Assembly (NCBI GenBank): GCA_014905635.1
Contig: CM026548.1
Span: 248,001 to 312,000, forward strand
Length of the DNA: 64,000 nucleotides
Source: Scenedesmus sp. PABB004
Taxonomy: Eukaryota
Direction: 5' to 3'
Below the pieces are notes generated by a model. It was given only the letters and a program-made list of their open reading frames with translations. It ran no database searches and was not told the origin of the DNA. Positions within the stretch are counted from its first letter, which is position 1. Each line of letters starts with the position of its first letter. Made by a program: the position numbers and the translations under genes. Of the stretch, positions 1-61,600 are shown in pieces.

Positions 1-2079
1 GCGCACGCCAAGCCCTCGCGCTCCCCGCACCTGGAGCTTGTCGTCGTCAGCGATGTCATTGTGGATGTCGTGGGTCACGCCCTTGAGCGCGGCGTTCCTG
101 CGCGGCCGACCGGCGCGCGGCACGCGGTGTCAGCGGCGCGGCCGGCGCGCGGCGCGCACGCCGCGGGCCGCCGCGCCCTGCCCCGCGCGCCGCGCGCCGC
201 GCCGCGCCTGGCGCGCTTGAAGAAGGCACCGATGCTGCGGTCGGCCGGGTCGACCTCCACGGGGCCCAGCGCCGCGTCGACGCGCTTCTGGAAGGCGTCC
301 TCCTCCACGTCCTTGTGCCCCGCGCTGCCCTCGCCCTTGGGCAGCGTAGAGTGCTGCTCGTCGTACTCACGCACATACTTGCGCATGACGGGCCAGAGCG
401 CGAGCGAGCCCAGGATGCCGGCGCCGGCGGCCGCGACGGCCGAGATCCACGCGGCGGTGTTGACGTCAATCTTCACAATGGCGCGCACGCCCTTGGTCTG
501 CGCGGCGACGCGCGGCGCAGGCGGGCGGGCGCGGGCGCGCTCGGCCGCGGCGGCGCGCAGCGTGCGGCCGGCGTGCGGCGTGCGCCGCGGCGCCTCCTTG
601 TGCCCCCCGCGGCCGCACGCACCAGGATGAAGAACAGGGAGACAAAGATGGTGGCGAATATGAGGAAGGGCAGCACCCAGAACGCAATCTGCGCGCCGCG
701 GGGGCCGCCGCGCGGTCGGCGGCCGCGCCGCGACGCAGGAGCCCCAGGCGCGGCGCCGCGACCCGCGCGCGCGCGGCGGCGCGCGCGCGCGCGCGCGGCG
801 CCGCGCCTTGGTGGAGTTGGCGCGGCGCAGCACGAAGGTGCGGATGACGAGGAAGAAGATCAGGCAGAAGATCGCCGCCGCGGCGGGGGAGAGGAACCAG
901 GAGATGACGATCGGCACGATGCCGCCGACGTAGGGGAAGTCGGCCTGCGGTTCAGGGCGAGCGGCGGCGCGGGGCGGCGTGCTGAGCGGGCGCGCTGAGC
1001 GGGCGGCGGCGGGCGGGGGCCGCGCGCGCGTGTGCGGGCCTGGCGGCGGCAGCGGGCGCGGCGCGGGCGCACCTTGGGCTCGTACCACACAACCGCACTG
1101 GGGCCGCCAAAGGCCATCGCAAAGCCAATGACACCGCCGATGATGGAGTGCGTGGTCGACACGGGCAGCTCAAAGTAGGTGGCCGTCCTGGCGGGCGGTG
1201 GCGGCGGCGGTGGCGCGCGTCGGCGGCGGGCGCGGCGGCGCCAGGGCGCGTGCCCGCGGGCACACAGCGAGGCACGACGACGAGGCACACAGCGGGCTAG
1301 CGCGCGCGGCACACAGCGGGGGACGGCGGGCGCAGGGAGCGTGCTCACAGGATCCAGATCATGGACGCCGTCTCGGCGGTGAGCATGCCAAACATGAAGA
1401 GCGCGGGGTAGTTCTTGAATGTGCTGGTCTTGGCGATCGACCCCGCGATCGTGCGCGTGACCTGGCCGCCGAGCGTGATGGCGCCGAGCATCTCAAACAC
1501 TGCGGCGATGCAGACCGCGCTCCAGAGCTTGAGCGTCTTGGAGCCGACCGATGTGCCGAACGAGTTGGCCACGTCGTTGGCGCCTGCGCGCGCGCGCCGG
1601 GGGATTGGCGGCAGGCGGGCGGGCGGCGGGGGCGTGCGCGTCACGTCCACCCGCGCGCGCGGCTGTCCAGCAGCGGCCGCTCCAGGCGGAGCGGCCGACA
1701 GCCCGGCGGCGCGGCCCCCAGGGGCGCGCACCGATGCCGTAGGCATCGAGCCAGGCCACAATGCCGTGGATGACGATCATCCATGTGTACTCCTGCAGGG
1801 GAGGGCAGCAGAGAGGGCGGCGGCGGCTCGTGGGAATCGGGCGCCGCGCACGCCCAGCCGCCGCCGCCGCCGCCCCGCGCACGCCCTCCCGGCCGCTGCG
1901 AGGCGCGGCCGCCGTGTCGAGCGCCTGTCCCAGGCCGCGCGCGAGCTGTGGCGCGCGGCTCGGGGCGCGATCCAGGCCGGCCAGGGCTTCGAGGCGCGCG
2001 CGGGGCACTGACGCCCCGTGCGCCTGCTCCGTCCGCGCCCGCCCTGCGCCGCGCGCCCGCAGCGCACCGCCCACGCCAT
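1..2079 (-). CDS. PTB: PiT/PHO4-family (Na+)/phosphate symporter, spliced; 3' end runs off the window
   Basis: Spliced reading MAWA|EYTWMIVIHGIVAWLDAYGIG|ANDVANSFGTSVGSKTL contains the PiT signature GANDVAN. Later exons give LPVSTTHSIIGGVIG and SWFLSP. ATG at 2079-2077. Confidence 0.93.
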
Positions 2080-2773
2080 GGCGACGAGCTTGTGGAGATC
2101 GCGGAGGGGAGGGGCGAGCGGGGGGCGGCGGGCGGCGGGTACCGCTCGGAGAGGTGGAGGATGGGCGGGGAAAGGGCGCGCAGGGGCGCGGCGGCTGGCT
2201 GTGCGCGCTCAGGGCGCGCCGCCGCCGCACGGCACATGCGGCGTGCTCATGACAGCTGCCGTCGGCATATGCTGAGCGTAGTAGCATGTTTCGCTGGAGC
2301 GCGTGCGTCGCCTGGTCGTCGCGACGGGGACGACGCTCACACAGAGCCCAGCGTCCTCGGCGCTCGCCGGGCACCAGCGGCGCGCCGCCGGCCGGCAGCT
2401 GGCCGGCAGCTGGCTGGCAGCGACCGGTGACGCCCCAGGCTGTGAGGCTGCGGCGGCGCGCCAACCCAACGGGCAGCCCTTGGGGCAGCTGCGGTGCTGT
2501 GTCAGCCGAGCTGGTCAGCCAGAGTTAACAGCGCAGCGCGCCACTCTCGAGCCACCACCCGCCCGCACGGCGGCGGCTCTGACCAGAGCACCGCCGCGCG
2601 CGGTGGTGTGCCGCGCGGCACAGCAGGCGCATGCCCTAGTCTAATGTACAGGCGATCGATGCACGCGCTCACCACCACCGCAGCATCCCCGTCAGCGCCT
2701 GCGGGCGCGCGCCGCGGGCGCGCGCGCCTCAGCCCAGCGCCGCCGGCGCGCTGCGGCCGGGCGCGGCGCGTGC
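2010..2773. repeat. Direct repeat copy A (PTB promoter, exon 1 and start of intron 1)
   Basis: Near-identical to about 3385-4151; the core (about 2110-2555) is essentially identical, and identical ORF translations appear at both places in the track. Confidence 0.95.
2265..2272. promoter_or_regulatory. P1BS-type element (GNATATNC) upstream of the phosphate transporter
   Basis: GCATATGC lies about 186 bp upstream of the PTB ATG and matches the PHR1/PSR1-family binding consensus. ATAT is scarce in this GC-rich DNA. Confidence 0.6.
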
Positions 2774-2867
2774 GCTGCTTGGGGAGGCGGCGGAGGGCAA
2801 AGGCAGGGCCGGCGACGGTCGGGCGCCGGCGCTGCGGCGGGCTGCAGCCCGAGCCGTCACCCAAACT

Positions 2868-2896
2868 CGGCGGTGAGTCACCGTGACTCACCGCCG
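2868..2896. repeat. Perfect 14-bp inverted repeat with 1-nt spacer
   Basis: CGGCGGTGAGTCAC-C-GTGACTCACCGCCG. Confidence 0.95.
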
Positions 2897-2909
2897 GTGA
2901 GGCGCGGAG

Positions 2910-3390
2910 ATTCATGTGTCCAGCGCGCAGCGGGGGCGCAGCTTGGCGGCGGGTCAAACTGTCCACAGCCAGCGCAGCGTATCAACACAAGAAGAACGCC
3001 AGGGGCACGCACAGCAGCAACAGAGCGCGCGCCGCACGCGCAGCGCGCAACCCCTGGACCACCACCCCGCAGACCCCGGTCGCGTGCCGCCGCCGGCGCG
3101 CTCACAGGTTGGGCTCGAGCGCGCGCCCGGGGCCCTTGTCCCAGCGCGGCATCGACTTCTCGGCGTCGGCGTCGGAGCTCCAGAGCGTGTTGAAGAGCAC
3201 GGTGGAGAGGTAGCGCTCGCCAAAGCTCGGCAGCACCGTGACGATCAGCTTGTCCTTGTTCTCGGCGCGCCGCGCGACGCGCAGCGTTGCCGTGACCGCC
3301 GCGCTGCGCGAGGCACGGGGCGGCGGCGTCGGCGCGGGCTGCGGCGACGCGCGCGGGCGGCCCGGCGCGGACCAGCACCTCTGCTGATGC
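2910..3390 (-). pseudogene. Duplicated 3' fragment of the cysteine synthase gene (last intron, last exon, 3' UTR)
   Basis: Matches about 14827-15326 and encodes the same [31 protein letters not shown]...EPNL* C-terminus. It lacks the PLP-binding N-terminal part. Confidence 0.9.
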
Positions 3391-4151
3391 CCCGCGCCTG
3401 CTCCGTCCGCGCCCGCCCTGCGCCGCGCGCCGTCGGCGCACCGCCCACGCCATGGCGACGAGCTTGTGGAGATTGCGGAGGGGAGGGGCGAGCGGGGGGC
3501 GGCGGGCGGCGGGTACCGCTCGGAGAGGTGGAGGATGGGCGGGGAAAGGGCGCGCAGGGGCGCGGCGGCTGGCTGTGCGCGCTCAGGGCGCGCCGCCGCC
3601 GCACGGCACATGCGGCGTGCTCATGACAGCTGCCGTCGGCATATGCTGAGCGTAGTAGCATGTTTCGCTGGAGCGCGTGCGTCGCCTGGTCGTCGCGACG
3701 GGGACGACGCTCACACAGAGCCCAGCGTCCTCGGCGCTCGCCGGGCACCAGCGGCGCGCCGCCGGCCGGCAGCTGGCCGGCAGCTGGCTGGCAGCGACCG
3801 GTGACGCCCCAGGCTGTGAGGCTGCGGCGGCGCGCCAACCCAACGGGCAGCCCTTGGGGCAGCTGCGGTGCTGTGTCAGCCGAGCTGGTCAGCCAGAGTT
3901 AACAGCGCAGCGCGCCACTCTCGAGCCACCACCCCGCCGTGGCGGCGGGGTGGTCTCTGACCAGAGCACCGCCGCGCGCGGTGGTGTGCCGCGCGGCACA
4001 GCAGGCGCATGCCCTAGTCTAATGTACAGGCGAGCGATGCACGCGCTCACCACCACCGCAGCATACCCGTCAGCGCCTGCGGGCGCGCGCCGCGGGCGCG
4101 CGCGCCTCAGCCCGGGGCCGCCGGCGCGCTGCGGCCGGGCGTGGCGCGTGC
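3385..4151. repeat. Direct repeat copy B of the PTB promoter and exon 1, including a second P1BS at 3639-3646 and ATG at 3453
   Basis: Near-identical to 2010-2773 with a few SNPs and indels near the ends. Confidence 0.95.
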
Positions 4152-4226
4152 ATGCTGTGCGTGGCGCGGCGCGCGCTGCGGGGTGCGGGTGCGGCGGGCT
4201 GGCGGCGTGCCGGCGCGGCGGCGCTG

Positions 4227-5252
4227 CTACTTGAGCTTGACGTAAATGATGAGAAAGATAGCGGCGATCAAAAAGGCGGCAATGCCAAACATAATGATCT
4301 TGTTTGCCACGATGCGCTTGCTCATGGTCCCCAGCACCTTGCGCGCGCGGCTGATGTTGTCGTCCGCGCCGTGCAGCGTGTCGCGCGCGTGCACGATCGT
4401 CTCGCGCTGCCGCGCCAGGTCCTGCAGGATCGTCACGCCCAGCTCCTGCGCGCGCGCGGCGCGCGGCGCCGGGCGGCGCGCGTGGTGAGCGCCGCCGCCG
4501 CCGCTGCCCGCAAAGCCGCGCCGCGAGTGGCTCGCGCGGGGCGCCGCCGCCGCCGCCGCCGCCGCCGCACCTCGGTCTCGGCGAGCTGCTGCTTGCCGAC
4601 CTGCAGCCGGTCGCTCGTCTTCTGCAGCCGCTCGGTCGACGCGAGCACGCGCTCGCGCTGCCCCGCGCTCGTGGAGTAGTAGCCGTCGCCGAGGCCGAGC
4701 TCCGCGCGCGCGGCGGCGTCGCCGCCGAGCTCGCCCGCCGCCGCGGCCTTGAGCTGCTCGCGCAGGCTCGCCAGGTCGGCCTTGTACTCCTTGACCTTGA
4801 CCAGCAGCCCGCGCGAGCGCTCCGCCGCGAGGCTGCGCGCCTCCATGTCCAGCCGCTTCACCTGCGAGGCGCGGCGCGGGAGGCGCGTCGGGCGTGTGGG
4901 CGCGCCAGGCCTGCCGCTGCTGCGCGCGCCGGCCGCGAGTGGCCCCCGGCCCTGCTGCTCACCACGCTGTCCGCTTCCCGCACGTCCGCCTCTATCTCCG
5001 ACACCTTCTTTCGCCGCAGCTCTGCGCGCGGCGCACGCAGAGCAGTGCGGCGCTCGGCGCCCGAGCAGCGGCGGCGCAGGCGCGGCGCGGCGCGGCGGCG
5101 GCGCGCCAGGCCCGTCGCCGCCCCCGGGCGATCCCAGCGGCGTGCCCACCTCCCGTGAGGCCCGCGAGGGAGCTGATTTTGCGGGAAATGTCGGTCGACT
5201 TGTTGCAGTAGTCCTGTTCATACTGGTGGAACAGCGCCGTGGGGTCCTCCAT
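4227..5252 (-). CDS. VTI1: Qb-SNARE vesicle transport protein VTI1, spliced
   Basis: MEDPTALFHQYEQDY..., VKEYKADL, QRERVLASTERL, ETE|LGVTILQDLARQRETI...SRARKVLGTMSKR, followed by a C-terminal TM helix. Confidence 0.93.
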
Positions 5253-12014: not shown

Positions 12015-14368
12015 TCAGTGGTGGTGGTGGTGGTGATGCCCGTGGCCGTGCCCGTGCGCGTGCCCCGCGCCGCCGAGCGCGCCGGCGCCGCCGCCGTGGT
12101 CGTGCGCGTCGGGGATGAGGCTCAGCGCCGCGATCGCGCCGACGCCGGCGAGCAGGCAGCCAAACTTGGCCCAGCGCGCAAAGACCTGGCTGATGTCGAC
12201 GCGCCCGCTGCGCATGTCGCCCTCAAACTCCTCCTCCACGATCTCGCTCGCCCCGACGTAGAGGAACGTGCCGGTCGCAAAGCAGGAGAGCACGAGCGAG
12301 AGCGCGGGGTGCACGTCGCGCACAAACATGCCCGTCAGGATCGCGACCGGCGCGACAAAGACAAACGGGCCCACGTACAGCGTGATCTGCGCGCGTGTGT
12401 GCGTGTGTGTGTGTGGGGGGGGGGGGGAGCGGGCGGCGGGTGGGCGGCGGGCGGGTGGCAGCGAGCGCGGGGTGCGGCACGTGGGCGCTGCGCGAGCGCA
12501 TGGGAGCGGGCGGCGCGGCGTGGGCGCGGCGGCGCGGTGAGGCGCGGCGCCGCGCGCCTGGCGCGTCGTCGCGCCGTCCTTGAGGAAGCGGGAGGAGAGG
12601 GCGAGGCCGCTGATGAGCTTGTGGCTCGCGATGGCCATGAAGAGCATCAGGAACTCCTTGCGCATGTCCTGCAAGAGCGCGCGCAGTGTGTGAGACGGGC
12701 GCGCGGTGTGATGGCGTGCCGACGCGCGGCGGCGGGCCGGCCCGCGGCGGCGAGACCGCGGCCGGGGGCTGGCGGGCGGGCGGGGGCTGGGCGCGCGCGC
12801 GCAGGCCTCATGGCGCGGGCCGCGCCGCGCACCATGAGGCCGAGCGCCATGCACTCCAGGAAGGTGTGGACGACCATGGCCACCAGCAGCACCACGCCCT
12901 GCCGCAGGTCGCCCGCCGCCGACGGCACGCCGGCGTGGTGGTGGAAGGGCGCGTGGCTGTGGTCGTGGCCGTGGCCGTGGCCGTGCGCGTGGGTGTGGCC
13001 CGTGTGGTCGTGGCCGGCGTGGTCGTGGCCGGCGTGGGCGTGGGCCGCGCTGCTGCCAGCCGCCTCCTCGCCGTCGTCCGCCAGCAGCGGCTTCCGCAGC
13101 GGGCTCGGGCTCGCGCGGCTGCGCAGGTTGTAGCGCCCCGGCGTGCCGGCGGGCTCGGCCTCGGCCCCGCGGGCGCGCCGTTGGCGCCGCCGGCGCCGTT
13201 GGCGCCGGGCGCGCCGCCGTCGGGCTCGCCCGCCTCGGCGGTGCGGCAGTCGACGCACGGCGGCGCGATGCCGGTGTGGGGGCCGTGCCCGTGCGCGGAG
13301 CCGTGCACGTCAAACAGCACGCGCTCGACAAACAGCACGAGCATGTACCCGAGCGTGATCAAGACCAGGTAGAGTGGATACTCCCCAACCAGCGGCCCCA
13401 GGCGCGCCTGCGCCTCGGCGCAGTGCGGCAGCAGGTGCACGAGCCCCGCCGCGAGGAAGACGCCGCCGCTGAAGCAGTTGAGCAGCGAGAGCCACCTGGC
13501 GGCGAAGGCGGCGGGGCGCGGGGCGTGGGGCGCGAGGCGCGCGGGGCGCGGGGCGCGGGGCGCGGGGCGTGTGCGTCGGCTGCGGCCGGGGCCGGCCGCG
13601 GCGGCCGCCCCGGGCCGCTGGCTCACCACTCGTAGCCCTCCACCGACTTGAGCAGCACCGGGATGTACACGCCCGCGATGCCCTCAAGGAGGAGCGCCAG
13701 CGCGGCGCCCAGGCGCAGCGCGCCCGTCACGGGCACGGCGCCGCCGTCGCCCGCGGGCGCGCCGTCGGCGAGGCTGCACGAGGCGTCGAGCTGCGCGCGA
13801 CGCGCGGGCGGGGGGCGTGTCGCGCGGCGCGCGCTGGGCGGCGCGGGACCTTGCAGGACGCTGCTGCGCGGCTGCTGCGCGGCTGCCGGGCCGCGCGCGC
13901 CGCCGCGTGCGCACCTGGCACGCCATGATCGCGGCGCACGCCTGCTCCACTGCGTGCTGGTCGAGCACGCCGGCAGGGCCCTTGCCGTATGCGCGCTGCA
14001 GGTCTGCGGCCGAGAGCGTGAACTGCGAGCCCCCGGCGGCGCGCGGCGAGGCGGGGCACGCGCGCCTGCGCGCGCGCACGGCGGAGGTGGCGTGAGCTGG
14101 GGGACGGGGGGGGGGAGGGGGGCAGCGCCGGCGACGGTCGCGCGCGGGGCGCCGCGCGTGGCTGCAGCCCTCGCCCGCACCGAACGGCGGCGGTGAGCGC
14201 GGCGACGTCTGCGTGCTGCAGCGGCTCCTCCACGCCGACCAGGTGGGCCAGGCGGTCCGCGAGAGCGTCGTAGGCGCCGAAGGCCTCAAGGTAGGGGGCG
14301 CTGTGGCCGGCGGCGAGCGTCGAGAGCAGCAGCAGCAGCGGCGGAGCGAGCAGGCTGCAACGGCCCAT
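12015..14368 (-). CDS. ZIP-family metal (Zn/Fe) transporter with signal peptide, His-rich loop and His tail, spliced
   Basis: LNCFSGGVFLAAGLVHLLP; TM4 VHTFLECMALG; TM5 IASHK; ATGTFLYVG; HAHAGHDHAGHDH loop; C-terminal HHHHHHH. Apparent indel near 13175. Confidence 0.92.
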
Positions 14369-15020
14369 CGAGGGGGCCTGCGGCACGGGCGGCGAGCGGA
14401 GGGATGTCGGAGGCGACTGCGGGACCCCCAGCGGGCTGCAGGCTGCGGCGGGCGCGCAGGGGATGCCGAGGCCGGCCCCCGGGCGCCCCGCGCACCCACC
14501 GGGCCTGCGGGGGCGGCGACCTGCACCTAGGCCATCCAATGAGGAGCGCGACACGGGCAGAACAGGCGGCAGCAGGCGGCCTTCCGGGCGTCGCGCGCAG
14601 CGGCGGCGGCCGCGCTGCTCGCCGGCGATGGCGGCCGTGCGCGCGTGCGCCGGTGCGGGGTGAGGCCGGAAGCGGGCTGACACTGGGCTGGCTAGGGTGG
14701 CGCGCCCGCGGGGCTCAGCGGCGCAAACACCCGAGGTTTCACCCGGATGCACTGCGCGAGGCCGTTGCGCCGTCGCCCTCCAATCTCGGTCATGCACGTG
14801 GGCAACGGAGGCCGCCGCCCGGCTGCATTCATGTGGCAGCGCGCAGCGGGCGCGCAGCTCGACGGCGGCGGGTCAAACTGTCCACAGCCAGCGCAGCGTA
14901 TCAGCACAAGAAGAACGCCAGGGGCACGCACAGCAGCAACAGAGCGCGCGCCGCACGCGCAGCGCGCAGCCCCTGGACCACCACCCCGCAGACCCCGGTC
15001 GCGTGCCGCCGCCGGCGCGC

Positions 15021-15735
15021 TCACAGGTTGGGCTCGAGCGCGCGCCCGGGGCCCTTGTCCCAGCGCGGCATCGACTTCTCGGCGTCGGCGTCGGAGCTCC
15101 AGAGCGTGTTGAAGAGCACGGTGGAGAGGTAGCGCTCGCCAAAGCTCGGCAGCACCGTGACGATCAGCTTGTCCTTGTTCTCGGCGCGCCGCGCGACGCG
15201 CAGCGCCGCCGCGACCGCCGCGCCTGCGCGCGCGCGGGCACGGCGAGGGCGTGGGGCGTCGGCGTCGGCGCGAGCTGCGGCGCGCGCGGGCGGCCCGCCG
15301 CACGGCAGCGCACCGCTGCTGATGCCGGCGAGGATTCCCTCCTCGAGCGCGAGGCGGCGCGCCATCTCAACCGACTCCTTGCTGCTGACCTGGGCGTGGG
15401 TGGCGGTGACCGTGGTGCGTGTGCGCGTGTGGAGGAGGACAGGGAGGGGTCAGCGGCAGAGAGAGAGAGGGAGAGAGGGGCTCTCGCCGAGCCCGTGCCG
15501 CTGCGCTCCAGGGGCGCCCAGCGCGGCGGCGGCGGCGGCGGCGGCGGCGCGGCGGCGCACCTTGAGCACCTCATCGAGCAGCGACACGTCCAGCACCTGC
15601 GCGGTGCGGCGCGCGGCAGGCAGCAGCGGCGGCGGTCGGCAGTGGCGGTCGGCGGCGCGCGCGCGCGCGGGCGTGCGGACGGCGCGGCGTGGGGGCGCGC
15701 CGTGGGGCGCGCCGCGGGCGCGCCGCCGCGCCTTT

Positions 15736-15766
<31 letters not shown>

Positions 15767-17379
15767 GGTGGTAACCAGGCTTGCCACCTGGCGCAGGGGG
15801 TGGTTGGCGGCGAGAGTGAGATAACAACGGCGCGGCGCCGGCGTGCGTGCGGGGTGGGCGCGCGCGCGCGCGCGCCGCACCCGACAGCACCGGGCTCTCC
15901 GCCGGCTCCACCGCGACCAGCTGCACGCCCGGCTTGCGCTCCCGCAGGTAGCGCCCCGCGCCTGCGCGGCGGCCGCGCGCCGGCGAGCGCGCGCGCGCCC
16001 GGCTGAGCCGTGGCGGCGCGGCGGCGCGGCGCGGCGGCGCGGCGCGGCGGCGCGGGGCGGGCGCACGCTGCGGCCGCGCGCCGGCACGCACCCGTGATGG
16101 TGCCGCCGGTGCCCACGCCGGCGACGAGGATGTCCACCGTGCCGGCCGAGTCGCGCCATATCTCGGGCCCCGTGGTCGCGTAGTGCACGGCCGGGTTGGC
16201 AGGGTTTTCAAACTGGTGCGCGGTTGGATTGAAGCGGTTTGAACGGCGGCTTGAGCGGCGGCTTGAGCGGCGGCGGCGGCGGCGGCGGGCGCGGCGGCGC
16301 ACCTGCTGCAGCATGTATGCGCCCGGCTGGCGCGCCACAATCTCCTCGGCCTTGCGGATGGCGCCCGTCATGCCCTGCCGGCGGACACGGCGAGCGCCGT
16401 CGGGGCGTGCGCGACGCGCCGCTCACCCGCGCGCCCGCCGCCGCGCGCGCGCCGCTGCCGGCCCGCCGCCGCGCGTGCGCCGCTGCCGGCCCGCCGCGGC
16501 GCGCGCCTTGCGGCCCTCTGTGAGCACCAGCTCGGCGCCCAGCGCGCGCAGCAGCACGCGGCGCTCGATGCTCATGGTGTCGGGCATGGTCAACAGCAGG
16601 CGGTAGCCCTTGGCCGCGGCGACAAACGCGAGGCCCACGCCCGTGTTGCCGCTCGTGGGCTCCACCTGGCGGCAGCACGGCGGCGGGCGGCGCGCGGCGC
16701 TGAGCGAGCGCGCGCCACGGGGCGCGGCCGGCGCGCGGCCGCCCAGCACGCCCGCCCGCCAGGCGAGGGCGGGCCGCCGGCCGGCGCGCCCACCAGCAGG
16801 GTCTTGCCGGGCGTGATCAGGCCCTGCTGCTCGGCCGTCGAGATCATGCTGTAAGCGATGCGGTCCTTCACGCTGCAGCGGCAGCGGCGGCGGCGGCGTG
16901 GTCGGTGCGCGGCGGCAGCGGGCGCGCGCGGCCGGGCGGGCGCGGCGCGCCCCCAACCGCCGGCGGCGCGGCGCGGCGGCGCGTGCGCGCGCCTGCAGCA
17001 CGGCTGCATGAGCTCCAGCTTGCACGCCACGCGCGCGTAGCAGCCCTGCTTGGTGACGCTGTTCAGGTAGACCTGCGCGGCGCGGCGCGCGCGGCGCGGC
17101 GGCTCGGCGGCGGGCGGGCGCGGCGCGATCCGGCCCGCGCGGCAGCGGCGCGGCGCGGACCATCGGCGTGTTGCCGATCAGCTGCGTCGCGTCGGGCAGG
17201 ATGTGCTGCGCGTGCACGCCCACGTCCTCCGTGCCCGCCGCCTGCTCCACCGACGCCGCGCGCCGGCGAACTACGCCGCGGGCGGAGGGCCGCGCGCCGC
17301 CGCCGCGCGGCGCCGCTGCTGCCGCCGCGCCCGCGGCGCCGCCGCCGGGCGCCGCCGGCCGCCGCGCCGCCGTCTGCAT
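15021..17379 (-). CDS. OASTL: Cysteine synthase / O-acetylserine (thiol)lyase, organellar-type, spliced
   Basis: [23 protein letters not shown] (PLP lysine), [52 protein letters not shown]. Confidence 0.96.
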
Positions 17380-58640: not shown

Positions 58641-61600
58641 CTAGTGCCGGCGCGCCGGCACGCAGGCGCCGCCCGGGGCCGCCGTGGAGCCGGGCGGGCA
58701 TGCGCAGCGTTGCGTGGCGGCGTCGCAGAAGCCGGAGGCACAGCCGCTGGAGCCCTTGCAGCCCTGGCCGACCGCGCACGGCTTTCCACAGTAGAATCCG
58801 CAGTCGACGTCGCCTGCGTCGCACGGCGCGCGCGCGTGAGCGTATGGCAGCGCGCGCTCGCGGCAGCAGGCGGTGGCGCGCGGCGTGCGGCCGGTGCAGG
58901 CAGGCGGCGCCCGGCGCCTGGCCGCGTGCGCGCGCTCCAGCGCGCACCCTCGTAGGCGTCTTTTATGCCGTTGGAGCACATCTCTGCCTGGGGCACGCAC
59001 CGCGGCGCCGCGCCGGGCGGCCCCAGGAAGATGAAGGCTCCCCGGGGGCACGCACAGCGCGGCACGCCGTCGAGCGCCGCAAACGCGCGGCACTCGCCGC
59101 CGTCGCAGTCGGCGCCGCTCGCGCACGGCTCGCCCGCGGTGCACCGCCGCGGCGCGGCGGCGCCGCACGCGCGGGGCGCCGCGGCCGGGCTGCTGGCGCC
59201 GGCGCCGCCGCCGCCGCGGGCGGCGCCGCTGCCGCCGCCGCCGCCACCGCCAGACTCGCCGCCGGCCAGCTCCAAGTCAGCAGCCTCGACGCACGCCCCG
59301 CTGGCCGCGTCCGGCACGAGCGACCGGGCGAAGCAGTCGTCGCTGCAGGTCGGGCCGGCAAAGCCGTCCGCGCAGGCGCACACAAACTCGGGCGAGGCAC
59401 CCGGCGGCGCCGGGGAGCAGGTCCCGCCGTTGGCGCACGGGCTCGCGCCCGCGCAGGCGCCGCTGGCGCGCGTCTGGCACAGCGTGCCGGTCCAGCCCGG
59501 GGCGCAGGCGCAGCTGCGGGGCGGCGGAGGGAGGCGGGTGAGCAGGCGGGCGCGCGCGCGCGCCGCCAGCACTGCCAGCGCCGCGGCCGCCACTCGCGGC
59601 CGCCCCCGGGCCGCTCACGTGTAGTCTGGGACGGCACCCGGCTGTGGCGTGCAGCGCGCGCCGTTGCGGCAGGGGCTGCCGGCGTCGCAGGTGCCGCGGG
59701 TGCCCGTCGTCACGGTCGTCAGCGGGGCGCCACCCCCGCCGCCCGCACCGCCGCCACCCCCGCCGCCCCCCGCCGGCAGCGTGGGCGTGACGGTGGTGGT
59801 CGTGGGCGGCGCGAGCTGGTCGCACAGCTCGCCGGCAAAGCCCGCGTTGCAGGCGCAGCTGAACGCGCGCTGGCCCGGCGCCGGCGCCGGCAGCGGCGTG
59901 CACGCACCGTTGATGCAGGGGCCGGGCGCCGCGCACGCGTCGGCGGCGGGCGCCGCGTCCTCGCAGCGAGGCCCGCCGAACCCGCGCGGGCAGGCGCACG
60001 TGAAGTCCGGCGCGCCCCCCTCGGCGCCCTCCGCCGGCACGCACGTGCCGCCGTTGCGGCACGGCCCCGGCGTCGCCTCGCAGCTCGGCGCGCGCAGCTC
60101 GCACGCGGGGCCGCTCGTCCCTGGCGGGCAGACGCAGAAGTAAGGCGGCGCCTGCTCCGGCGCCTCGATGCACCGCCCAGCCCCGCACGGCGGCGGCGCC
60201 GCGGCGCACGCGCTCGGCGCGACCTCGCACGCGTCGCCGCCGTAGCCGTCGGGGCAGGCGCACACAAACGCCGGCGCCGCGCCCGGCGGCACCGCCGGCG
60301 AGCAGGTCCCGCCGTTCTCGCACGGCGCGCCGGCGCAGGGGTCGTCCGCGTCGGGCGCTGTCGCCGCGGTGCCGTTGCCGGCGTCGGCGCCACCGCCCAC
60401 GCCGGCGGCGGCGCCGCCGTCCGCGCCTGCCGCGCCGCCGCCGCTCCCGGGCGGCGGCGCGCGCTCGCTGCAGGTCGGCCCCCGCCAGCCGGCGGTGCAG
60501 TTGCAGGCAAAGTCGGGGCTCGCGCCCGGCAGCGGCGTGCACGCGGCGCCGTTGCGGCACACCGGCGTGGTGGCAAAGCAGGCCGAGCGCGCGACCTCGC
60601 AGACCGCGCCCGTCCAGCCGGCGGCGCAGTAGCACCGAAAGTCTGGCCCGCCCCGCCCCGGCACGTAGTCGGGGGTGGGGATGCACTTGCCGCCGTTCTT
60701 GCACGGGTTGCCGGCCGCGCACGTGCTCGTGCGCGCCTCGCACGTCGGGCCGCCGAAGTTGGCGGCGCAGGTGCACTTGAAGTTGGGCGCCGCGCCGACC
60801 GCGGGGGCGCACGCGCCGCCGTTCTTGCACAGGCTCGCGGCGGCATCGCACGCGGTCGTGCAGCGGCTGCCGTCGGCGCTCAGCGGCGACCCGGGCGGGC
60901 AGCCGCACGTGCTCGTCGTAGCGTTGCACACGCCGGTCGCGCAGTCGGCGCCGACGCGGCAGACGGCGCCGACGCTGCACTTGGCCGCGCACTCGCCGCC
61001 GCCTGGCGTCGCGGCAGGGGCGGCGCGGCGCGGCGCAGCAGGTGAGCACCGCGGCGCGCGGGCGAGGAGACCGGGCGCTGCACGCTGCGGCCGGGCCGAC
61101 TTCGTGCGGCCCCGCCGCGCCGCGCCGCGCCGCGCCACGCTCACAGTCCACGTCTGACTCGTCCGCGTCCTTAGCGCCATTGAAGCAGAGCTCTGCCCGC
61201 GTGAGGCAGGACGAGAGGTCTGGCGAGATGAACTCGCCGCGCGGGCACATGCAGATGCGCTGGTCCTGCGCGGCCCGCCGCAGCGACGGTGGCGTCAGCC
61301 GGGCCTGGACCGAGCGAGCAGCGCGGCGCGGCGCGCGGCCGCACCGTGTTGCAGATGCCGGCGGCGCAGTCGGCGTTTGCCTTGCAGGCGTGGCCGAACT
61401 TGCAGCCGGGGCAGACGCCGCCGCCTGCGCCGGCGCGCGGGGCCGCGTGAGGCCGCGCCGCCGCCGCGCGCGCGCGCGGCGGGCGGGCGGGGCGGCGGCG
61501 GCGCGCAGCCCAGGCACGGCCGCTCGCTCACAGTCGGTGTCGGTCTCGTTGGCATCGCGCTTCCCGTTGGCACATGCGCCGCTGCCTCCGGCGCTCGCCT

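What the first reader, a model, noticed from the sequence alone, without database searches (positions are those of the whole stretch)
2910..4151. Chimeric gene: phosphate-transporter promoter and exon 1 fused to the 3' end of cysteine synthase
Seen: a second copy of the PTB upstream region (P1BS 3639-3646, ATG 3453, MAWA exon and donor) is joined on the same strand to a copy of the last intron, last exon and 3' UTR of the OASTL gene 12 kb away. The join at about 3384-3391 falls on microhomology CTGA(T/C)GCC shared by both parents. It has a promoter copy, splice sites and a 3' UTR copy, so it could be a complete transcription unit. Splicing MAWA to the copied acceptor is out of frame with OASTL, so an RNA or novel peptide is more likely than an enzyme. 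Inference: a phosphate-starvation-inducible OASTL-homologous RNA could link P and S metabolism as a decoy or silencing trigger, or this is a nascent gene.
Basis: partly seen in the sequence, partly recalled or inferred. Interest (0 to 1): 0.8.

Follow-up and report, generated by a model that had tools for sequence, protein, structure and literature searches.

The report
Promoter duplication with captured cysteine-synthase fragment
A phosphate-transporter gene's whole upstream region and first exon are duplicated in tandem, with pieces copied from a cysteine-synthase locus 12 kb away between the copies; this looks like a scar of error-prone DNA copying, not a proven new gene.

Summary
On the minus strand, 3384-4151 repeats 2008-2773, which is the whole intergenic region, the 12-nt first coding exon (MAWA) and 59 nt of intron 1 of a PHO4-type phosphate transporter. 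Window 2910-3391 copies the end of the cysteine-synthase (OASTL) gene at 14827-15326.

New points:
- The "unknown" 136 bp is not random. Window 2768-2877 matches 14090-14197, downstream of OASTL and collinear with the first piece.
- A 29-nt fold-back palindrome sits at the internal join.
- Both outer joins carry microhomology.
- Identity is near-perfect in the block centres and poor at the edges.

Best reading: one replicative template-switching event gave a tandem duplication with a templated insertion, later partly homogenised by gene conversion. The chimeric unit has a full promoter copy, ATG and donor. Its acceptor region carries 16-nt and 1-nt deletions, the parental splice is out of frame, and the OASTL piece is sense-oriented.

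I could obtain no transcript evidence, junction-spanning reads or sister genome. A regulatory RNA remains speculation, and an assembly false duplication is not excluded. This is an ordinary kind of structural variant, neatly preserved.

The parts
3384..4151 (-). Distal copy (X_B) of the transporter upstream block. It begins 76 nt after the stop codon of the upstream V-SNARE gene and runs through the intergenic region, 5' leader, ATG, MAWA codons, donor and 59 nt of intron 1. It lies in the native upstream context.
   Evidence: blastn; alignment A2; V-SNARE_C hit for 4230-4448
2008..2773 (-). Proximal copy (X_A) of the same block, continuous with the body of the PHO4 transporter gene (exons at 1-1793).
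   Evidence: PHO4 hit for 1351-1581
3639..3646 (.). GCATATGC, a palindromic match to GNATATNC (P1BS), 186 nt upstream of the ATG of X_B. Its twin is at 2265-2272 in X_A.
   Evidence: motif definition from passages of PMC7578391
3442..3453 (-). ATG plus three codons (MAWA) of the duplicated first exon. The GT donor at 3441-3440 has its first six intron bases identical to those of the functional copy at 2067.
3384..3391 (.). Junction J1: transporter intron 1 joined to the OASTL penultimate-exon end. It has 8 nt of shared sequence with one mismatch (3 nt perfect on the transporter side of the diagnostic T).
2910..3391 (-). Copy of OASTL 14827-15326: 11-12 nt of the penultimate exon, the last intron (with a 16-nt and a 1-nt deletion next to the acceptor AG at 3305-3304), the last exon (3303-3105, stop 3104-3102) and 194 nt of 3' flank.
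2868..2896 (.). 29-nt perfect palindrome (14-nt arms, 1-nt centre) at internal junction J3. The arm at 2868-2877 is the end of the second donor piece, and the other arm is its inverted copy. The out-of-frame ORF ends inside it (stop 2880-2878).
   Evidence: (dG -17.2 kcal/mol, 0 of 200 shuffles as stable)
2768..2877 (-). Second donor piece: diverged copy (87 of 115 columns, 75.7%) of 14090-14197. That site is 630 bp beyond the first donor piece, in the same order and orientation.
   Evidence: (score 84 vs next best 46 among 628 tiles)
2767..2776 (.). Junction J2: second donor piece joined to the distal end of X_A. GCGTG is shared by all three sequences, with an imperfect extension to GCTG.
14827..15326 (-). 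Donor 1: 3' end of the OASTL (cysteine synthase) gene. The gene spans about 15021-17379.
14090..14197 (-). Donor 2: sequence just downstream of an ORF that starts with ATG at 14368 (minus strand). Calling this the start of that gene's first intron is my inference.
   Evidence: no Pfam family for 14201-14368
3928..3966 (.). Copy-specific mutation cluster. X_B has a perfect 12-bp-stem hairpin where X_A (2552-2586) has only a weak imperfect one.
   Evidence: dG -18.0, z -6.3 against -7.7, z -0.9

Best explanation
This is a real genomic scar of one complex, replication-type rearrangement. While the transporter's 5' region was being copied, synthesis left the template 59 nt into intron 1. It re-primed by microhomology in the OASTL gene 12 kb away and copied about 500 bp to the end of that gene. 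It then jumped again, leaving a 14-nt fold-back, to a point 630 bp further along the same donor and copied about 110 bp. Finally it returned by microhomology to a point 766 bp behind where it had left.

The product is SNARE - X_B - [OASTL piece - palindrome - second piece] - X_A - transporter body. That is a tandem duplication of the entire promoter and first exon with a templated insertion in between.

Since then the centres of the homologous blocks have been kept identical to their partners, most likely by gene conversion, while the block edges and the short second piece diverged.

The transporter keeps a full 694-nt upstream copy and is probably unaffected. The distal promoter copy now faces a short, non-enzymatic chimeric unit that may or may not be transcribed. 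I take it to be a neutral by-product: a gene-fragment pseudogene with a live-looking promoter.

Shown: the anatomy, the donors, the junction features and the uneven identity. Inferred: the order of switches, a single event, gene conversion and neutrality.
For: - Two blocks of homology with sharp ends.
- The insertion is made of two collinear, same-strand pieces of one 1.24-kb donor interval. The second match is unique in the window: score 84 against at most 46 in the other tiles of 628.
- J1 has 8 nt shared with one mismatch, and J2 has GCGTG shared by all three partners.
- J3 has a perfect 29-nt palindrome whose one arm is donor sequence and whose other arm is its inverted copy.
- The differences are not spread evenly. 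X has a 460-column identical run in 764 columns (permutation P 0.0025). The OASTL copy has a 236-column run in 506 columns, with only 2 differences in 341 central columns (P 0.0033).
- There are no retrocopy marks, since the intron is retained and there is no A-run at 2910.
- None of 15 six-frame ORFs over 2446-4676 has a Pfam family, so no transposase is present.
- Passages of PMC5120786 list microhomology, templated insertions of hundreds of bp, duplication at the insertion site and iterative switches as the signature of replicative template switching (FoSTeS/MMBIR).
Against: - The three parts differ in divergence: X edges about 4-7%, the OASTL intron part about 15%, and the second piece 24%. 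One event therefore needs later, uneven homogenisation, which is inferred and not shown.
- A 3-5-nt GC-rich microhomology is not rare by chance in DNA of 79% G+C.
- I have no independent confirmation that the two X copies sit on one molecule.
- No outgroup or sister strain was available to date or polarise anything.
Confidence: 0.6

Rival explanations
1. Assembly artefact: a false tandem duplication. One haplotype or strain carries the 610-bp insertion in transporter intron 1 and the other does not. The assembler laid the two alleles (X_B + insertion, then X_A) one after the other instead of collapsing them. The chimera 'promoter - exon 1 - OASTL fragment' would then really be an intronic insertion in one allele of the transporter.
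For: - The layout SNARE - X_B - INS - X_A - gene body is exactly what a linearised bubble would give.
- X_A and X_B differ by 25 of 764 columns, a level that alleles or strains could show.
- The source organism, or close relatives of it, occurs in mixed freshwater communities (short contigs with 0-2 differences).
Against: - J2 shows shared GCGTG and an overlap between donor homology and X_A homology, which a mechanical mis-join would not be expected to produce.
- The insertion's second piece is 24% diverged from its donor. That argues for an old, probably fixed insertion and not a heterozygous one.
- The window has no N and no other sign of duplicated haplotypes in 64 kb.
Confidence: 0.15
2. 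The distal promoter copy drives a phosphate-starvation-inducible chimeric RNA or small protein. This product links P and S metabolism as a decoy or silencing trigger, or is a nascent gene under selection.
For: - A complete copy of the intergenic region, including the GNATATNC match, the ATG and an unchanged donor, is present in the native upstream context.
- The promoter core and the OASTL exon/3' flank are the parts kept identical to their partners, as selection could also do.
- An AG at 3340-3339 would give an in-frame 82-residue product ending in the OASTL C-terminus.
- Most Chlamydomonas PTB genes carry the motif somewhere in the gene (passages of PMC7578391).
Against: - The OASTL piece is sense to its parent, so no duplex with OASTL mRNA can form.
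- The 66-residue OASTL tail gets no PALP call on its own and lacks the upstream exons.
- The acceptor region is damaged by 16-nt and 1-nt deletions.
- The parental-equivalent splice yields a 145-residue Arg/Ala/Gly-rich frame of the kind any frame gives at 79% G+C.
- 460 identical promoter columns are better explained by conversion than by constraint on every base.
- The motif count is not significant, and whether this organism has a PSR1/PHR1 factor was not tested.
Confidence: 0.1
3. Two-step history through end joining. An ectopic piece of the OASTL region was first captured as filler at a double-strand break next to the promoter. A separate later event duplicated the 766-bp block to its other side.
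For: - The much higher divergence of the insertion edges (15-24%) than of the X edges (4-7%) fits an older insertion and a younger duplication.
- Capture of ectopic genomic DNA at breaks in plant cells is known (recalled from the literature, not checked here).
Against: It needs the second event to end exactly at both edges of the first insertion. One multi-switch event explains both new junctions at once.
Confidence: 0.1
4. Cargo of a gene-fragment-capturing transposon (Helitron- or Pack-MULE-like) that picked up transporter and OASTL pieces.
For: Such elements assemble promoter and exon fragments of several genes on one strand (recalled). A strong hairpin lies inside the insertion.
Against: - There are no terminal inverted repeats at the block borders, and the only palindrome is internal.
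- There is no transposase-like ORF and no second copy in 64 kb.
- Both X copies are contiguous with their native flanks.
Confidence: 0.05

Closest known systems
Complex insertions and duplications formed by iterative replicative template switching (FoSTeS/MMBIR), as described for human copy-number variants (PMC5120786, passages read; the founding papers by Lee et al. 2007 and Hastings et al. 2009 were seen only in its reference list)
   Same: Copy-number gain at the acceptor site, insertion templated from a nearby locus, several junctions, microhomology of 3-8 nt, and an inverted patch at one junction.
   Different: The scale is about 1.4 kb instead of kb-Mb. This is an evolutionary, apparently old variant in a very GC-rich microbial eukaryote and not a de novo clinical event. 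Its formation was not observed.
Chimeric genes created by partial tandem duplication in Drosophila (PMC5460883; search listing and start of abstract only)
   Same: A duplicated promoter plus first exon is placed in front of foreign exon sequence, giving a potential new transcription unit.
   Different: In those cases the chimeras join two neighbouring genes at the duplication breakpoint and were shown to be expressed. Here the 3' part was imported from 12 kb away, and expression is unknown.
Short-range template switching and quasipalindrome mutations (PMC7954356, PMC8604942, PMC7202029; listings and starts of abstracts)
   Same: The 29-nt perfect palindrome at J3, and the multi-nucleotide cluster that turns a weak inverted repeat in X_A into a perfect hairpin in X_B, look like arm-to-arm copying.
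   Different: No outgroup is available, so the direction of the change (gain in B or loss in A) is unknown.
Retrocopies / processed pseudogenes (recalled)
   Same: A 3'-terminal gene fragment sits at an ectopic site.
   Different: The intron is retained, there is no poly(A) tract, and a second piece comes from beyond the gene. This is therefore not RNA-mediated.

Membership tests
Replicative template-switch rearrangement (FoSTeS/MMBIR-type) | Microhomology at breakpoint junctions | tested here: met
   J1 has 8 nt shared with 1 mismatch. J2 has GCGTG shared by donor, acceptor and product.
Replicative template-switch rearrangement (FoSTeS/MMBIR-type) | Templated insertion copied from a nearby locus, with two or more switches | tested here: met
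   Two collinear donor pieces (14827-15326 and 14090-14197) and three junctions.
Replicative template-switch rearrangement (FoSTeS/MMBIR-type) | Copy-number gain of acceptor sequence | tested here: met
   A 766-bp block is present twice in the assembled sequence. Read depth was not available.
Replicative template-switch rearrangement (FoSTeS/MMBIR-type) | All junctions formed in one event | not testable with these tools
   Needs sister genomes or intermediates. The unequal divergence of the parts leaves this open.
Retrocopy | Loss of introns, 3' poly(A) tract, short target-site duplication | tested here: not met
   The last intron is present, no A-run follows 2910, and the flanking repeat is 766 bp.
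Gene-fragment-carrying transposon (Helitron / Pack-MULE) | Defined element termini (TIRs, or a 3' hairpin with CTRR) and further copies | tested here: not met
   There are no inverted repeats at the borders and no other copy in the window. The whole genome is not held, so copy number genome-wide is untested.
Expressed chimeric (new) gene | Promoter, start codon and usable splice sites | tested here: inconclusive
   The promoter block, ATG and donor are identical to the functional copy. The acceptor AG is kept, but 16 nt upstream and 1 nt at the border are deleted.
Expressed chimeric (new) gene | Transcripts spanning the fusion | not testable with these tools
   No RNA data could be laid on the region.
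PHR1/PSR1-controlled phosphate-starvation promoter | GNATATNC element in the promoter | tested here: met
   GCATATGC lies 186 nt upstream of each ATG. Statistically this is weak: 2 hits against 0.46 expected, from one duplicated site.
PHR1/PSR1-controlled phosphate-starvation promoter | Organism encodes the MYB-CC factor, and the gene is induced by Pi lack | not tested
   No genome is held and there are no expression data.
PHO4 / PiT phosphate transporter (parent gene 1) | Match to PF01384 above the gathering score | tested here: met
   Exon 3: 77.2 bits against a cut-off of 33.7.
PLP-dependent cysteine synthase (parent gene 2) | Match to PF00291 above the gathering score | tested here: met
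   One exon: 46.1 bits against a cut-off of 35. All 61 database relatives of the last exon that carry a name are called cysteine synthase or hypothetical protein. The copied fragment alone gives no Pfam hit.

The most novel reading that the evidence does not exclude
The structure is old and retained. The distal promoter copy fires under phosphate starvation and makes a short sense RNA that carries the OASTL last exon and 3' flank, and that segment is kept 99.4% identical to the parent. This RNA would either titrate factors that bind the OASTL 3' end, coupling S assimilation to P status, or would tune the transporter promoter 600 bp downstream by transcriptional interference before ending at the duplicated SNARE 3' region. 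A weaker but likelier variant: the locus is a natural reporter of very active ectopic gene conversion in a 79% G+C genome.
Probability: 0.05. Interest if true: 0.65.

Novelty: new member of a known kind. Interest (0 to 1): 0.3.

Why it matters
If the structure is real, it is a cleanly readable example, in an extremely GC-rich microbial eukaryote, of how one template-switching accident can duplicate a complete nutrient-responsive promoter and put foreign exon and 3' sequence behind it. That is raw material for a new gene.

The sharp contrast between identical block centres and diverged edges also suggests frequent gene conversion between short repeats 1.4 and 12 kb apart. This bears on how such a genome reaches 79% G+C.

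It does not, on present evidence, reveal a new regulatory mechanism linking phosphate and sulfur metabolism.

Tried and rejected
- **Whole genome:** none is held for this window, so copy number elsewhere and the presence of a PSR1/PHR1 gene could not be checked.
- **Sequencing runs:** four freshwater metagenome DNA runs from two studies hold 13-24% of the sampled words. No RNA holder is listed.
- **Laying those runs:** only short, low-depth contigs were laid, and no listed piece bridges J1, J2 or J3. One 244-nt contig (X4, record 19) continues into OASTL-parent sequence at 2921, so it comes from the parent locus. Contigs over 3806-4062 and 3845-4092 match X_B, including its perfect hairpin, with one difference each. 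This shows only that this version exists in the environment. Uncovered parts say nothing.
- **Metagenome contig scans:** an exact 24-mer around the promoter motif found nothing. A protein-guided scan with transporter exon 3 returned 80 loci, the best only 74% identical on a 2.9-kb contig. No sister strain was found, and both scans are now spent.
- **Protein database search with the copied OASTL exon:** 61 short cysteine-synthase fragments came back. None is identical over the whole query, and none is marked as the window's own.
- **Protein atlas:** it confirmed only the PHO4 family and gave no usable taxonomy.
- **Rfam on the whole window:** no family reached threshold.
- **Earlier findings:** nothing on record.
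- **TGTAA as a poly(A) signal:** 6 hits against 3.5 expected and none near the gene ends examined, so the OASTL and SNARE 3' ends could not be placed.
- **Bacterial promoter/terminator scan:** irrelevant to a eukaryote and empty apart from one weak stem.
- **Breakpoint-associated hypermutation** as the sole cause of the diverged edges: considered and set aside, because 24% divergence over 115 columns exceeds what I know of error-prone repair polymerases (recalled, not computed).
- my first ORF table was offset by 2 nt. One search is the corrected one.

Full report
**Setting.** The window is 79% G+C and has no N. It carries eukaryotic genes with short GT-AG introns on the minus strand.
- From high to low coordinates, the region of the finding starts with the last exon of a V-SNARE (PF12352, E 6.8e-11 for 4230-4448; stop codon 4229-4227).
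- A 773-nt intergenic region follows.
- Then comes a PHO4/PiT-type phosphate transporter (PF01384, E 1.5e-21 for exon 3 at 1351-1581). Its first coding exon is only ATG plus three codons (MAWA; ATG at 2079), followed by a GTGCGC donor and a 274-nt intron.
- Twelve kilobases away, also on the minus strand, lies a ten-exon cysteine synthase / OASTL gene (PF00291, E 5.4e-12 for one exon) that ends with a TGA at 15023-15021.

**Check of the observation.** blastn of 1500-4699 against the window finds exactly two non-trivial matches.
- 2008-2773 matches 3384-4151 at 97.3% over 770 columns.
- 2910-3391 matches 14827-15326 at 92.4% over 502 columns, on the same strand.
- A whole-window self-comparison adds only one unrelated 99-column pair at 59.4/60.2 kb.

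- the second ATG at 3453 with the same MAWA codons and donor;
- the GCATATGC motif 186 nt upstream in both copies;
- the OASTL copy running from 11-12 nt before the end of the penultimate exon through the last intron, last exon and stop to 194 nt of 3' flank;
- the shared octamer at the join, CTGATGCC in the copy and in OASTL, CTGACGCC in the transporter intron;
- the two diagnostic single-base variants.

(a) The duplicated block X starts only 76 nt after the SNARE stop codon. It therefore contains essentially the entire intergenic region, most probably including the SNARE 3' end. The distal copy X_B sits in the native upstream context. The proximal copy X_A, the one attached to the transporter body, has 694 nt of native upstream sequence before the insertion begins.

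(b) The 136 bp between the OASTL copy and X_A is not anonymous filler.
- Window 2768-2877 aligns to 14090-14197 with 87 of 115 columns identical.
- Its local-alignment score is 84. The best of the remaining tiles among 628 tiles of the window on both strands scores 46, and the median is 30.
- This second donor piece lies 630 bp beyond the first, in the same order and orientation. The insertion is thus a 1.24-kb donor interval copied with a 628-bp internal gap.

(c) At that gap sits a perfect 29-nt palindrome (2868-2896).
- One arm is the beginning of the second donor piece, and the other arm is its inverted copy.
- It folds at -17.2 kcal/mol, and 0 of 200 shuffles fold as well.

(d) The second outer junction also has shared sequence. 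GCGTG is present in the donor, in X and in the product.

(e) In the copied intron, 16 nt directly upstream of the acceptor and one G at the exon border are missing.

**Uneven identity.** Differences are concentrated at the block edges.
- In X, 25 of 764 columns differ. They fall into nine clusters that leave a 460-column run with no difference. A run that long arises in 0.25% of 100,000 random placements of nine events.
- In the OASTL copy, 47 of 506 columns differ in 13 clusters. There is a 236-column perfect run and only two differences in the central 341 columns (P 0.0033).
- The intron part is roughly 85% identical, and the second donor piece is 76% identical.
- One cluster in X turns a weak inverted repeat in X_A (-7.7 kcal/mol, z -0.9) into a perfect 12-bp hairpin in X_B (-18.0 kcal/mol, z -6.3). 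This multi-nucleotide change is of the kind attributed to short-range template switching (abstracts of PMC7954356 and PMC8604942).

**Mechanism.** The simplest account of two new outer junctions with microhomology, a two-piece collinear templated insertion, a fold-back patch and a copy-number gain of the acceptor site is a single replicative repair event with three template switches. That is the FoSTeS/MMBIR type. Passages of PMC5120786 describe the same combination in human complex insertions: microhomology, templated insertions of 376 and 815 bp, duplication at the insertion site and iterative switches.
- An RNA-mediated origin is excluded by the retained intron, the absence of an A-tract and the piece from beyond the gene.
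- A transposon cargo is unlikely. There are no terminal repeats at the borders, no other copy in 64 kb and no recognisable protein domain in any of 15 six-frame ORFs over 2446-4676.

The pattern of identical centres and diverged edges is what gene conversion between short repeats would leave, because tracts rarely reach the ends of homology and a 110-bp diverged piece is a poor substrate. On that reading the event is old, and the 24% divergence of the second piece is the least-converted estimate. The promoter copies and the OASTL core are being homogenised. This step is inference. A two-step history, or selection on the conserved cores, cannot be excluded without relatives.

**What the chimeric unit could make.**
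- From the ATG at 3453, the donor at 3441 is unchanged in its first six bases.
- Using the AG that corresponds to the OASTL acceptor (3305-3304) gives a 138-nt intron and a 145-residue open frame. That frame is out of phase with OASTL, is rich in Arg, Ala and Gly, and ends at 2880-2878 inside the palindrome. At 79% G+C every frame gives such ORFs, so this is no evidence of coding.
- An AG 35 nt upstream (3340-3339) would instead give an 82-residue product ending in the last 66 residues of OASTL, with two Ala-to-Thr changes. That tail lacks the rest of the PLP fold and gives no Pfam hit alone.
- The OASTL-derived part is in sense orientation to its parent. A transcript could therefore not pair with OASTL mRNA, and any silencing role would need extra assumptions.
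- Whether the copied 194 nt of 3' flank includes a poly(A) site is unknown. TGTAA is not enriched in the window.

**The phosphate-starvation element.**
- GNATATNC occurs twice in 64 kb against 0.46 expected, and 8 of 100 shuffles reach two. The two hits are one site duplicated.
- In Chlamydomonas the motif was found somewhere in most PTB genes by simple pattern search (passages of PMC7578391). That is context and not a test.
- I could not establish the lineage of this organism or whether it has the cognate factor.

**Is it real?** I could not test the assembly.
- No genome is held.
- The only public runs with matching words are four low-coverage freshwater metagenomes whose short contigs bridge none of the junctions.
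- Two scans of metagenome contigs found no close relative.

A specific artefact must therefore stay on the table. If one haplotype or strain had the 610-bp insertion in intron 1 and another did not, laying the two alleles end to end would produce exactly SNARE - X_B - insertion - X_A - gene. Three things count against this: the shared sequence at J2, the age implied by the diverged second piece, and the absence of any other duplicated stretch in the window. I give this artefact about 15%.

**Verdict.** The sequence observation is right, and richer than reported. The interpretation as a chimeric arrangement is right. The proposal of a regulated decoy or silencing RNA has no support beyond the presence of a promoter copy, and several features speak against it. 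The finding is best filed as a well-preserved template-switch tandem duplication with a templated insertion. It may be a nascent transcription unit. It is of modest interest, mainly as an example of new-gene raw material and of probable ectopic gene conversion in an extremely GC-rich genome.

Noticed in passing
window 1-64000: G+C is 79% over the whole 64 kb, in a genome with ordinary multi-exon eukaryotic genes. All six frames carry long open stretches: 165 stop-to-stop ORFs of 80 aa or more in the first 20 kb.
   Followed up: partly
window 16873-16992 (minus strand): The OASTL intron after the exon ending in ...QPCC appears to be a GC-AG intron. The only reading that keeps the conserved CSVKDR frame puts GC at 16992-16991 and AG at 16874-16873.
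   Followed up: partly
window 3928-3966 vs 2552-2586: A multi-nucleotide cluster makes a perfect 12-bp hairpin in the distal copy only (dG -18.0 against -7.7 kcal/mol). It lies about 60 nt downstream of the AT-richer patch CTGTACATTAGACTAG, which may mark the SNARE 3' end.
   Followed up: partly
window 59362-59457 and 60244-60339: This is the only other direct repeat in the window: 99 columns at 83% identity.
   Followed up: no
window 14199-14368 (minus strand): An ORF starts at ATG 14368 with a hydrophobic, signal-peptide-like N-terminus. It has no Pfam family. It probably marks the first exon of the gene downstream of OASTL, and the second donor piece starts at its apparent exon 1 / intron 1 border.
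   Followed up: partly
window 1800-4400, laid runs X1-X4: Short contigs with 0-2 differences from four freshwater metagenome runs of two studies show that this organism, or a very close relative, occurs at low abundance in fresh water. Single-base variants were seen at 4020 (T to A, two runs) and 4263 (G to A).
   Followed up: no
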